64,000 nt of DNA from an uncultured bacterium. GTDB taxonomy: Bacteria; Actinomycetota; Acidimicrobiia; Spongiisociales; ZC4RG35. A program made the position numbers and the translations under genes. The notes beneath the pieces are model-generated. The model did not search any database and was not told where the DNA came from. It saw only the letters and a program-made list of their open reading frames with translations. This document shows, piece by piece, positions 12,470 through 13,078 of the stretch. Where the stretch lies: assembly GCA_963751005.1 (NCBI GenBank), contig CAVVSY010000004.1, forward strand, positions 761,808 to 825,807. Direction: 5' to 3'. Within the stretch, counting starts at the first letter, position 1. Each line of letters starts with the position of its first letter.

Positions 12470-13078
12470 ATGGGGCAGCCGCGCGGTACTACCTTCGTCG
12501 ACGTGGACGAAGTGACCCATCGCCGACTCGCCGACGGGGCCGGATCCTCACCGCTCGCCGTCGGGGACCTCGCCCCCGACTTCGAGTTGAGATGGACCTT
12601 CGAGGAGTCGGTGAGGCTCAGCGAGTACCTGGCTCGTGGTCCCGTGCTCCTCGTGTTCTACGTCTTCGACTTCGGGCACTACTGAGGGCACGAGTTGTCC
12701 CAGTTGGGGCATCTGGCAGAGCGAATGAGGGAACATGGTGCCGAACCGATCGCCATCGCAGTGACGGCAACGTTCTCCCAGATCGCATTCTCGGAGACCC
12801 TCGGTGCCGACTTTCCGATGCTCTCGGATTGGGACGGGACTGTGGCCCACGCCTACGGCGTCCAGTACGAGGAGTGGAAAGGCCACTCCGGGCTGGCCAA
12901 GAGGTCGGTGTTCCTGGTCGACGAGCAGCGGCGCATCGTCTATCGCTGGCTCAACGAGGACGCCCTGATCGTGCCTGACCTATACGAGGCCCTCGACGAG
13001 ATCGAAGCCTTGTCGAGTGCCCAATCGGTTGCTGAGGCCGTATCTGGGCAGTCCGGGGACATCTCTACCGGCGGGTAG
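12470..13078 (+). CDS. AhpE-like 1-Cys peroxiredoxin (AhpC/TSA family) with in-frame TGA at 12683-12685 in place of the peroxidatic Cys
   Basis: PDFELR... VLLVFYVFDFGHY-TGA-GHELSQL... FPMLSDWDGTVAHAYGV... RSVFLVDEQRRIVYRW aligns colinearly with mycobacterial AhpE (VLLVFFPLAFTGIC-QGELDQL). The two ORFs 12410-12685 and 12695-13078 are in the same frame. Confidence 0.6.

What the first reader, a model, noticed from the sequence alone, without database searches (positions are those of the whole stretch)
12470..13078. AhpE-like peroxiredoxin with in-frame TGA at the peroxidatic cysteine position: candidate selenocysteine peroxiredoxin
Two same-frame ORFs (12410-12685 and 12695-13078) together encode a complete AhpC/TSA-fold protein. 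The join falls at a TGA (12683-12685). The flanking sequence VLLVFYVFDFGHY-[TGA]-GHELSQL aligns residue-for-residue with the active-site segment of mycobacterial AhpE (VLLVFFPLAFTGI-C-QGELDQL). The stop therefore sits exactly where the catalytic Cys should be. No frameshift is involved. Downstream of the TGA, a GC stem (GUCCC-AGUU-GGGGC, extensible by further pairs) begins about 12 nt away. Its loop contains G and U, which is compatible with a bacterial SECIS. Sec-containing Prx are known in a few anaerobes, but an AhpE-type Sec enzyme in a high-GC actinobacterium-like genome would be unusual. The alternative is a TGC-to-TGA substitution or assembly error. However, the errors seen elsewhere in this window are indels, not substitutions.
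Basis: partly seen in the sequence, partly recalled or inferred. Interest (0 to 1): 0.8.

Follow-up and report, generated by a model that had tools for sequence, protein, structure and literature searches.

The report
Unannotated selenocysteine peroxiredoxin gene of Actinomycetota
The in-frame TGA is almost certainly a real selenocysteine codon in a peroxiredoxin-fold gene. The gene is widespread in soil Actinomycetota, public annotation routinely truncates it, and this kind of protein is already known.

Summary
One reading frame (12503/12470-13078, +) encodes a complete AhpC/TSA-fold protein. It is interrupted only by TGA at 12683-12685, which aligns with the peroxidatic Cys of BCP/PrxQ and AhpE.

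It is not an error or a pseudogene:
- I recovered 87 related loci (81 distinct core sequences, 45-95% identical). Most come from Acidimicrobiia MAGs, others from Geodermatophilus, Blastococcus, Jiangellaceae and Nitriliruptorales.
- The codon at this position is TGA in 82, TAG in 4 and CGA in 1.
- None has another stop, and both halves show coding-type conservation.

A 6-bp hairpin with an invariant AGUU loop lies 10 nt after the stop codon:
- It fits the published bacterial SECIS model.
- Its synonymous sites are frozen.
- Three of its six pairs show compensatory changes.

TAG occurs in all three named Geodermatophilaceae isolates, plus one unnamed metagenome contig. This is the family whose tRNA-Sec is reported to read UAG. 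In one Jiangellaceae MAG, selB, selA, tRNA-Sec and selD lie 1-5 kb from the gene.

I could not test whether the window's own genome carries Sec machinery.

The active site lacks the canonical Pro and Thr (FYVFDFGxxU). An "AhpC" Sec-TAG gene was already reported in Blastococcus in 2017.

Verdict: a real selenoprotein and a new member of a known kind, of moderate interest.

The parts
12503..13078 (+). Coding sequence of the selenoprotein: 191 aa with Sec at residue 61. The alternative, non-conserved start at ATG 12470 would give 202 aa.
   Evidence: Translation. Pfam AhpC-TSA at 91.9 bits. The GTG at 12503 falls at the ATG/GTG start position conserved in relatives, whereas ATG 12470 is absent from the 95%-identical L006.
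12683..12685 (+). In-frame UGA read as selenocysteine, at the position of the peroxidatic Cys.
   Evidence: Aligned with the catalytic Cys of BCP/PrxQ/AhpE. The codon at this position is TGA in 82, TAG in 4 and CGA in 1 of 87 family loci.
12696..12711 (+). Bacterial SECIS-type hairpin: stem 12696-12701 / 12706-12711, apical loop AGUU at 12702-12705, starting 10 nt after the UGA.
   Evidence: RNAalifold consensus. In 71 distinct sequences, 95.1% of cells are paired, 3 of 6 pairs show compensatory changes, and 0 of 500 shuffles reach the observed values. The synonymous sites TCC-CAG-TTG are invariant. The hairpin meets the published bSECIS constraints.
12656..12682 (+). Active-site strand and turn FYVFDFGHY preceding Sec. 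Val replaces the canonical Pro and Gly replaces the canonical Thr/Ser.
   Evidence: F-Y-V-F-D-[FY]-G is invariant in 81 distinct sequences. Alignment with canonical FYPxxx[TS]xxC homologues.
12902..12904 (+). Codon for the conserved active-site Arg (AKR-SVF), retained from the peroxiredoxin catalytic set.
   Evidence: R is nearly invariant in alignments A2 to A4 and aligns with the conserved Arg of BCP/AhpE.

Best explanation
The region encodes a single polypeptide of about 191 aa with a peroxiredoxin (BCP/PrxQ-AhpE-like) fold. Its catalytic residue is selenocysteine.

**Decoding.** During translation, the UGA at 12683-12685 is decoded by Sec-tRNA(Sec). SelB delivers that tRNA after binding the small hairpin (6 bp, loop AGUU) that starts 10 nt downstream inside the coding sequence. 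The steps shown here are that the stop is conserved, the hairpin is under selection as RNA, the codon switches to UAG in the named lineage whose tRNA-Sec reads UAG, and Sec machinery sits beside the gene in one genome. The steps that remain inferred are actual Sec insertion in this organism and SelB binding to the hairpin.

**Function.** The protein has no conserved second Cys, so it would act as a 1-Sec enzyme. The selenolate attacks a peroxide or another oxidant. The conserved Arg assists. The resulting selenenic acid is recycled by an external thiol reductant that I could not identify. Because the canonical Pro and Thr are replaced by Val and Gly, peroxidase chemistry is an inference from the fold, not a demonstrated activity.
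For: 1. A single AhpC/TSA match spans the stop, and the stop aligns with the catalytic Cys.
2. 35 of 43 database homologues are C-terminal fragments of 111-127 aa that begin just after this position. This is the signature of gene callers stopping at a conserved TGA.
3. Among 87 loci (81 distinct), the codon is TGA in 82, TAG in 4 and CGA in 1. There are no other stops in 126 codons. Third-position differences exceed first- and second-position differences on both sides of the stop, and FYVFDFG immediately upstream is invariant.
4. The hairpin is supported in several ways. Ser-TCC, Gln-CAG and Leu-TTG are invariant, although the same amino acids elsewhere in the gene use 2-5 codons. Compensatory changes occur at pairs 15-28, 16-27 and 17-26, some through amino-acid replacements. 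95.1% of cells are paired, against 27-58% when the partner columns are slid. It fits all four constraints of the bSECIS model quoted in PMC13188914. The motif CCCAGTTGGG occurs only once elsewhere in 1.47 Mb of fetched DNA.
5. TAG replaces TGA in Geodermatophilus africanus, Geodermatophilus sp. YIM 151500 and Blastococcus sp.. It also does so in one unnamed metagenome contig, L024. Geodermatophilaceae are reported to carry tRNA-Sec with a CUA anticodon and an "AhpC" Sec-TAG gene (PMC5330540).
6. In L072, the gene lies 1-5 kb from selB, selA and selD, each above its NCBIfam equivalog cut-off, and from a tRNA-SeC with anticodon TCA.
7. An AF2 model of family member P0016 (pLDDT 94.6) matches Bcp4, PrxQ and AhpE with TM 0.82-0.92. 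The Sec position falls in the first turn of helix alpha2.
Against: - No selA, selB, selC or selD lies in the 64-kb window. The rest of the source genome could not be reached.
- The folding energy of the hairpin in the window is no better than that of shuffled sequence (z -0.06), so the support comes from conservation, not stability.
- Two of the four canonical peroxiredoxin catalytic residues (Pro, Thr) are absent, which weakens the inference of peroxidase activity.
- One relative (L005/P0016) has CGA (Arg) at the position. This shows that a non-Sec, non-Cys version can at least be assembled from reads.
- No thioredoxin, AhpD or AhpF partner gene is conserved nearby.
Confidence: 0.88

Rival explanations
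1. A sequencing or assembly error, or a recent TGC/TGT-to-TGA mutation, has produced a pseudogene of an ordinary Cys peroxiredoxin.
For: The window does contain apparent errors, for example a frameshift in the neighbouring MR/MLE gene and a fragmented Mo-hydroxylase gene.
Against: The same TGA occurs in 82 independent loci from different samples and assemblers, down to 45-55% protein identity. None has another stop or a frameshift. No Cys form exists above about 40% identity among 1.84 billion representative proteins.
Confidence: 0.01
2. This is a split gene. The TGA is a true stop, and the two halves are made as separate polypeptides. The second half would start at the invariant TTG seven codons downstream, by termination-reinitiation, and the halves would assemble into a peroxiredoxin-like fold without a catalytic residue.
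For: A TTG codon at +7 is invariant, and gene callers do start the downstream ORF near there. The canonical Pro and Thr are also missing, as expected for a non-catalytic protein.
Against: - This model does not explain the frozen synonymous sites in TCC and CAG.
- It does not explain the compensatory changes that keep the hairpin when amino acids change, such as S to A/T/I/L with matched third positions of the Gly codon, or CTG..CAG changing to CTC..GAG.
- It does not explain why TAG appears in all three named isolates of the UAG=Sec family and TAA never appears.
- It does not explain why the stop falls exactly on the catalytic position.
- The CGA variant encodes one continuous protein.
Confidence: 0.04
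3. The stop is read through with a standard amino acid (Trp, Cys or Arg by near-cognate tRNA). The hairpin stimulates this read-through, and selenocysteine is not involved.
For: Hairpins downstream of stop codons can promote read-through in some systems. One relative carries CGA (Arg) at the site. Sec machinery was not shown in the source genome.
Against: - The hairpin matches the bSECIS model in spacing and loop.
- The codon follows the lineage-specific Sec codon (UAG) in the named Geodermatophilaceae isolates.
- selA/B/C/D are adjacent in L072.
- The site is the redox-active Cys position of a thioredoxin-fold enzyme, which is the classic location of Sec.
Confidence: 0.05

Closest known systems
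[quoted passage not shown]
   Same: It is an AhpC/TSA-family protein of Actinomycetota with Sec at the catalytic Cys position and a bSECIS directly downstream. I found the same gene with TAG in Blastococcus sp. CT_GayMR19 and in two Geodermatophilus genomes, with the identical CCCAGUUGGG hairpin. It is therefore very probably the same family.
   Different: The window gene uses UGA and comes from a different class, most likely Acidimicrobiia. I could not see the published sequence (it is only in a figure), so identity of the two families is inferred from a congeneric genome.
Classical Sec-peroxiredoxins: PrxU of Eubacterium acidaminophilum (Sohling et al. 2001, cited in PMC13188914) and the PxxxTxxU Prx selenoproteins
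   Same: They share the fold and have Sec in place of the peroxidatic Cys, with UGA plus a downstream bSECIS. Examples with FFPAAFTGG-U-TREL turned up in the Terriglobia/Acidobacteriota loci L095 to L110.
   Different: The window protein scores only 48 bits against the PrxU model NF040737, whose cut-off is 270. It has Val and Gly where the PxxxTxxU motif has Pro and Thr. It also has a different SECIS sequence.
Cys peroxiredoxins of the BCP/PrxQ and AhpE subfamilies (A. pernix 2cx3, S. tokodaii 2ywn, S. solfataricus Bcp4 3hjp, M. tuberculosis AhpE 1xvw)
   Same: These are the best sequence matches (68 to 51 bits) and fold matches (TM 0.82-0.92). The active-site strand-turn-helix aligns residue for residue. 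The Arg is conserved. Like AhpE, the protein has no conserved resolving Cys.
   Different: They use Cys and keep the Pro and Thr/Ser. Identity to them is only 26-35%.

Membership tests
Bacterial selenoprotein gene (UGA/bSECIS recoding) | In-frame UGA aligned with a redox-active Cys of homologues | tested here: met
Bacterial selenoprotein gene (UGA/bSECIS recoding) | The UGA is conserved in orthologues, with protein-coding conservation on both sides | tested here: met
   82 TGA, 4 TAG and 1 CGA among 87 loci. No extra stops. Third-position differences exceed those at positions 1 and 2 on both sides.
Bacterial selenoprotein gene (UGA/bSECIS recoding) | Downstream stem-loop fitting the bSECIS model: loop of 3-9 nt with G in its first two positions, upper stem of 4-16 bp, 16-37 nt between the UGA and the loop, and MFE of -7.5 kcal/mol or lower | tested here: met
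   Loop AGUU, 6-bp stem, 16 nt between the UGA and the loop, and a consensus folding energy of -9.1 kcal/mol. Covariation is shown. The model is as quoted in PMC13188914.
Bacterial selenoprotein gene (UGA/bSECIS recoding) | selA, selB, selD and tRNA-Sec present in the same genome | not testable with these tools
   They are not in the 64-kb window. The feature is met for a family member: L072 has all four next to the gene. Sec machinery is also reported in class Acidimicrobiia (Actinomarina preprint).
Bacterial selenoprotein gene (UGA/bSECIS recoding) | Selenium demonstrably incorporated (75Se labelling or mass spectrometry) | not testable with these tools
   This needs an experiment.
Peroxiredoxin (AhpC/TSA, PF00578) | Profile match above the curated threshold | tested here: met
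   91.9 bits against a cut-off of 26.
Peroxiredoxin (AhpC/TSA, PF00578) | Thioredoxin-like Prx fold with the catalytic residue in the first turn of helix alpha2 | tested here: met
   AF2 model of P0016, about 48% identical to the window protein, with pLDDT 94.6. Foldseek hits to Bcp4, PrxQ and AhpE give TM 0.82-0.92. The window protein itself could not be submitted.
Peroxiredoxin (AhpC/TSA, PF00578) | Catalytic motif PxxxT/SxxC plus a distal Arg | tested here: not met
   The Arg is present and Cys is replaced by Sec, but Pro is replaced by Val and Thr/Ser by Gly in all 81 distinct sequences. The protein has the fold, and probably the chemistry, of the family, but not its full catalytic signature.
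AhpE subfamily | Closest relationship to AhpE rather than to other Prx subfamilies | tested here: inconclusive
   BCP/PrxQ score 57-68 bits and AhpE about 51 bits. By fold, both reach TM 0.86-0.92. No phylogeny was made.
PrxU (NCBIfam NF040737), Prx-SUH (NF045827), SelL-related (NF040769) | Score above the equivalog or subfamily cut-off | tested here: not met
   48.3 against 270, 19.7 against 298, and 25.8 against 120.

The most novel reading that the evidence does not exclude
The FYVFDFGxxU proteins form a distinct peroxiredoxin subfamily of aerobic soil and marine Actinomycetota that depends obligately on Sec. It has dispensed with the canonical Pro and Thr activators because a selenolate needs no pKa tuning. 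It works inside a recurring catabolic oxidoreductase gene cluster (GFO/IDH/MocA, histidinol-dehydrogenase-like, SDR, amidohydrolase, M24/creatinase, HbpS-like) rather than as a general peroxide scavenger, so its substrate or role may differ from those of known Prx. Supporting points: no Cys form was found above about 40% identity, the motif is invariant, and the neighbours recur in 15-25 of 83 loci.
Probability: 0.3. Interest if true: 0.55.

Novelty: new member of a known kind. Interest (0 to 1): 0.4.

Why it matters
- **Annotation.** This is a concrete case of systematic mis-annotation. In NCBI, ENA, JGI and Logan-derived protein sets, the gene appears almost only as a 111-127 aa "redoxin domain-containing protein" fragment. 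A selenoprotein present in about 60 species-level genomes of Actinomycetota is therefore invisible to standard pipelines.
- **Sec use in Acidimicrobiia.** The family marks Sec use in Acidimicrobiia, a class for which the only report of Sec machinery I found is a 2026 preprint on Actinomarina.
- **A natural test of recoding.** The family offers a natural experiment, because the same gene and the same SECIS are used with UGA in most lineages and with UAG in Geodermatophilaceae.
- **Catalysis.** The loss of the Pro and Thr residues that define peroxiredoxin catalysis, combined with exclusive use of Sec, gives a testable case of how selenium can substitute for active-site tuning.

None of this overturns current understanding.

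Tried and rejected
1. **Reaching the source genome.** Exact-sequence look-ups of P0001 and of the neighbouring gene were not on record, and cluster look-up gave no accession. The genome-contig scan did not return the 2,075,136-bp contig. The same-genome test for selABCD therefore failed.
2. **Protein search with E. coli SelD.** Only the best 120 hits are listed, and all were Enterobacteria, so the search was wasted.
3. **Protein search with the actinobacterial SelA from L072.** It returned only Actinomycetes-type SelA (Microbispora, Nonomuraea and others). One fragment was labelled Acidimicrobiales. No hit lay on the source contig.
4. **Sel genes and RNA families in the window.** tblastn of SelA, SelB and SelD against the window found nothing. 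ARAGORN found only tRNA-Pro in the window. Rfam at gathering thresholds found nothing in the window, as Rfam has no general bacterial SECIS model.
5. **Structure prediction of the window protein.** I modelled the Arg-variant homologue P0016 instead.
6. **Other selenoprotein candidates in the window.** The TGA plus hairpin at 49610 is simply the stop of an LLM-type oxidoreductase gene followed by a transporter gene. The one at 41188 (- strand) is antisense noise.
7. **Second CCCAGTTGGG in L072 (18290).** This is a chance match inside an aldo-keto reductase gene on the other strand.
8. **Hairpin stability as evidence.** Rejected, because z is -0.06 against shuffles.
9. **Mukai et al. 2016.** The paper could not be read. 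Its finding is cited through PMC5330540.

Full report
**1. The observation**

The window has 66.7% G+C. ORFs 12410-12685 and 12695-13078 share one + frame and are separated only by TGA at 12683-12685.

With a Cys placed at the stop, the product matches Pfam AhpC-TSA (E 3.7e-26, 91.9 bits, cut-off 26) and Redoxin, each as a single match running across the stop. Against PDB sequences, the best matches are:
- Aeropyrum pernix BCP (2cx3, 68 bits)
- Sulfolobus tokodaii PrxQ (2ywn, 66 bits)
- S. solfataricus Bcp4 (3hjp, 57 bits)
- M. tuberculosis AhpE (1xvw and others, about 51 bits)

In every printed alignment the stop position falls on the peroxidatic Cys.

**2. Not an error and not a pseudogene**

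A search of 5.8 billion proteins returned 43 relatives. Of these, 35 are only 111-127 aa long and begin just after the stop position. This pattern is expected if gene callers stop at a conserved TGA.

I fetched DNA from three sources: exact-protein look-ups, a metagenome scan and a scan of one genome per GTDB species. This gave 87 loci of the clade, with 81 distinct 126-codon cores and 71 distinct downstream segments, at 45-95% protein identity.
- The codon at the position is TGA in 82, TAG in 4 and CGA in 1.
- No locus has any other stop or frameshift in the core.
- Nucleotide differences are concentrated at third positions on both sides of the stop: 0.37/0.32/0.51 upstream and 0.26/0.22/0.48 downstream.
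- The seven residues F-Y-V-F-D-[FY]-G just before the stop are invariant.

The upstream part is therefore translated in this frame and is selected as protein. A substitution error or a decaying pseudogene is excluded.

**3. The RNA element**

Numbering the U of UGA as 1, nucleotides 14-19 pair with 24-29 around an invariant AGUU loop. In window coordinates the stem is 12696-12701 / 12706-12711 and the loop is 12702-12705.

RNAalifold recovers exactly this helix. On 71 distinct sequences:
- 95.1% of cells are paired, against 27-58% when the partner columns are slid.
- Three of six pairs show changes on both sides. Pair 16-27 occurs as UA, UG, AU, GC, GU and CG. Pair 15-28 changes from GC to CG. 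Pair 17-26 changes from CG to UA.
- None of 500 column shuffles reaches the observed values.

Several of these changes go through amino-acid replacements, which argues that the RNA, not the peptide ELSQLG, is the constrained object. Examples are Ser changing to Ala, Thr, Ile or Leu with a matching change in the third base of the Gly codon, and CTG...CAG changing to CTC...GAG.

Synonymous sites are frozen. Ser is TCC in 21 of 21 sequences, Gln is CAG in 23 of 23, and Leu is TTG in 23 of 23. Conserved Ser, Gln and Leu codons elsewhere in the same genes use 2-5 codons, and TTG is rare there.

The element satisfies all four constraints of the consensus bacterial SECIS model as quoted in PMC13188914:
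- loop of 3-9 nt
- G in the first two loop positions, followed by G or U
- 16-37 nt between the UGA and the loop (here 16)
- MFE of -7.5 kcal/mol or lower (here about -9 to -10.6)

Its stability alone is unremarkable against shuffles (z -0.06), so the case rests on conservation. The ten-nucleotide core CCCAGTTGGG occurs only once elsewhere in 1.47 Mb of fetched DNA, and that match is a chance one.

**4. Two independent links to the selenocysteine system**

First, all three named Geodermatophilaceae genomes in the set carry TAG instead of TGA, with the hairpin unchanged. These are Geodermatophilus africanus DSM 45422, Geodermatophilus sp. YIM 151500 and Blastococcus sp. CT_GayMR19. The fourth TAG is in L024, a 1.2-kb metagenome contig of unknown taxon. 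It shares the TAG-ACG-TCC codons at the Sec site with the G. africanus locus L050.

Santesmasses et al. 2017 (PMC5330540) report, following Mukai et al. 2016, that Geodermatophilaceae have a tRNA-Sec with anticodon CUA and selenoprotein genes with UAG at the Sec site. They also report an "AhpC" Sec-TAG gene with a bSECIS in Blastococcus saxobsidens DD2. A plain stop codon would not be expected to change in step with the lineage's Sec codon, and TAA is never seen.

Second, in L072 (a MAG labelled Jiangellaceae) the gene lies 1-5 kb from all four parts of the Sec machinery:
- selB: TIGR00475, 258 bits against a cut-off of 242
- selA: TIGR00474, 414 against 268
- tRNA-SeC with anticodon TCA
- selD: TIGR00476, 371 against 125

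A 2026 preprint reports selA/B/C/D and about five predicted selenoproteins per genome in Actinomarina, class Acidimicrobiia.

**5. What could not be shown**

The window itself has no sel gene and only a tRNA-Pro. It has no second selenoprotein candidate.

The source genome appears to be the 2,075,136-bp contig that carries P0001. I could not reach it by exact look-up, by the genome scan or by protein searches.

Its nearest relatives are an unlabelled soil metagenome contig (L006, 95%) and Acidimicrobiia MAGs (77% and below). The organism is therefore probably an Acidimicrobiia member, and that assignment is inferred. Sec decoding in this particular genome is inferred from the intact, conserved gene.

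**6. The protein**

An AlphaFold2 model of the full-length relative P0016 (the CGA/Arg variant) has pLDDT 94.6. It superposes on Bcp4, PrxQ and AhpE with TM 0.82-0.92, and the Sec position falls in the first turn of helix alpha2.

The conserved Arg (AKR, 12902-12904) is retained. The Pro and Thr/Ser of the defining PxxxT/SxxC motif are Val and Gly in every member.

49 of 81 sequences contain no Cys at all in the aligned 126-codon core, and the full-length window protein has none. A 1-Sec mechanism with an external reductant is therefore the natural model.

None of the known selenoprotein Prx models fits. PrxU scores 48 against 270, Prx-SUH 20 against 298 and SelL-related 26 against 120. The motif also differs from the TxxU, UxxC, UxxS and CxxU types tabulated in PMC13188914.

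In 1.84 billion representative proteins, no full-length relative exceeds 40% identity to P0016. Distant Cys forms exist with partly similar motifs: FYVFDFSGDC, FYSGDFGIIC and the canonical FYPADFSTPC. Within the clade I sampled, Sec is therefore the rule.

**7. Context**

In the window the gene sits in a catabolic neighbourhood:
- Upstream: an SDR gene and an MR/MLE gene, the latter with an apparent frameshift.
- Downstream: a 3-hydroxyisobutyrate-dehydrogenase-like gene, then cupin and FAA-hydrolase genes, and then fragments of a Mo-hydroxylase gene.

Across 83 non-redundant loci the recurrent neighbours are GFO/IDH/MocA oxidoreductases (25 loci), Zn-ADH (25), M24/creatinase-like (23), histidinol-dehydrogenase-like or SDR (21), amidohydrolase (15), NAD_binding_2 (9) and HbpS-like (8). 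There is no thioredoxin, AhpD or AhpF partner. These clusters were built by single linkage and are only a rough guide.

**8. Start codon**

Close relatives all have ATG or GTG at the position of the window's GTG 12503 (V-DEVTHRRL). ATG 12470 has no counterpart in the 95%-identical L006. I therefore give 12503-13078 as the coding sequence, with Sec as residue 61.

**9. Comparison with what is known, and verdict**

Sec-peroxiredoxins have been known since 2001 and were counted in 78 organisms in 2016 (PMC5029168). Sec use is common in aerobes and in Actinomycetota, and a probable member of this very family was noted in Blastococcus in 2017.

The finding is therefore a genuine selenoprotein that annotation has largely missed. 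It is a new member of a known kind. Its less ordinary features are:
- the Pro/Thr-less active site
- exclusive Sec use within the clade
- the UGA/UAG switch between lineages
- wide distribution in Acidimicrobiia

Confidence that this is a Sec-decoding gene is about 0.9. Confidence that it is a peroxidase in the usual sense is about 0.5-0.6. Interest is 0.4.

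Noticed in passing
window 12408-12446 and 5813-5851: A perfect 18+3+18 palindrome (GTGTGCAGATGAAGTCGC-ATA-GCGACTTCATCTGCACAC), extensible to about 22 bp per arm, lies between the MR/MLE stop and the selenoprotein start. 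A related palindrome sharing the core TGAAGTCGC...GCGACTTCA and the flanks AGCGTG...CACGCT lies in another intergenic gap. There are 4 arm matches against 0.04 expected. It may be an operator, a terminator or a REP-like element.
   Followed up: partly
window 11274-12405: The mandelate racemase/muconate lactonizing enzyme gene appears frameshifted near 12270-12300, and its conserved C-terminus (PGLGVEVDE) is in another frame (ORF 12139-12405). This fits indel-type assembly errors.
   Followed up: partly
window 15075-17373 (- strand): A xanthine-dehydrogenase-family molybdopterin protein appears as separate pieces: MoCoBD_2 at 15075-16319 and the a/b hammerhead at 16840-17373, with a gap between them. 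It is probably another frameshift.
   Followed up: no
L072 11540-15846: A complete selB-selA-tRNA(Sec) / selD cluster lies directly downstream of the selenoprotein gene in a MAG labelled Jiangellaceae. A SelA fragment 92% identical to it is labelled Acidimicrobiales in NCBI (P0166), so one of the two MAG taxon labels is doubtful.
   Followed up: partly
L005 1256-1258 (protein P0016): One relative, from a single Logan assembly, has CGA (Arg) at the Sec position, one base away from TGA, with the SECIS hairpin intact. It could be a read error, a recent inactivation or a Sec-independent variant.
   Followed up: no
L095, L097, L102, L103, L109, L110 (for example L097 10124): Terriglobia/Acidobacteriota genomes carry a different, classical Sec-peroxiredoxin with the canonical motif FFPAAFTGG-TGA-TRELTAYQ and a different downstream sequence.
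   Followed up: no
L050 10124, L055 10124, L056 10124, L024 409: TAG replaces TGA at the Sec codon in Geodermatophilus africanus DSM 45422, Geodermatophilus sp. YIM 151500, Blastococcus sp. CT_GayMR19 and one unnamed metagenome contig. For the three named genomes this matches the reported UAG=Sec recoding of Geodermatophilaceae.
   Followed up: yes
proteins P0297, P0304, P0326, P0041: More distant full-length relatives have Ala or Ser instead of Cys or Sec at the catalytic position (for example FYPFDFYPPAADLL and FYPLNWDEVSARQL). They are presumably non-peroxidatic peroxiredoxin-fold proteins.
   Followed up: no
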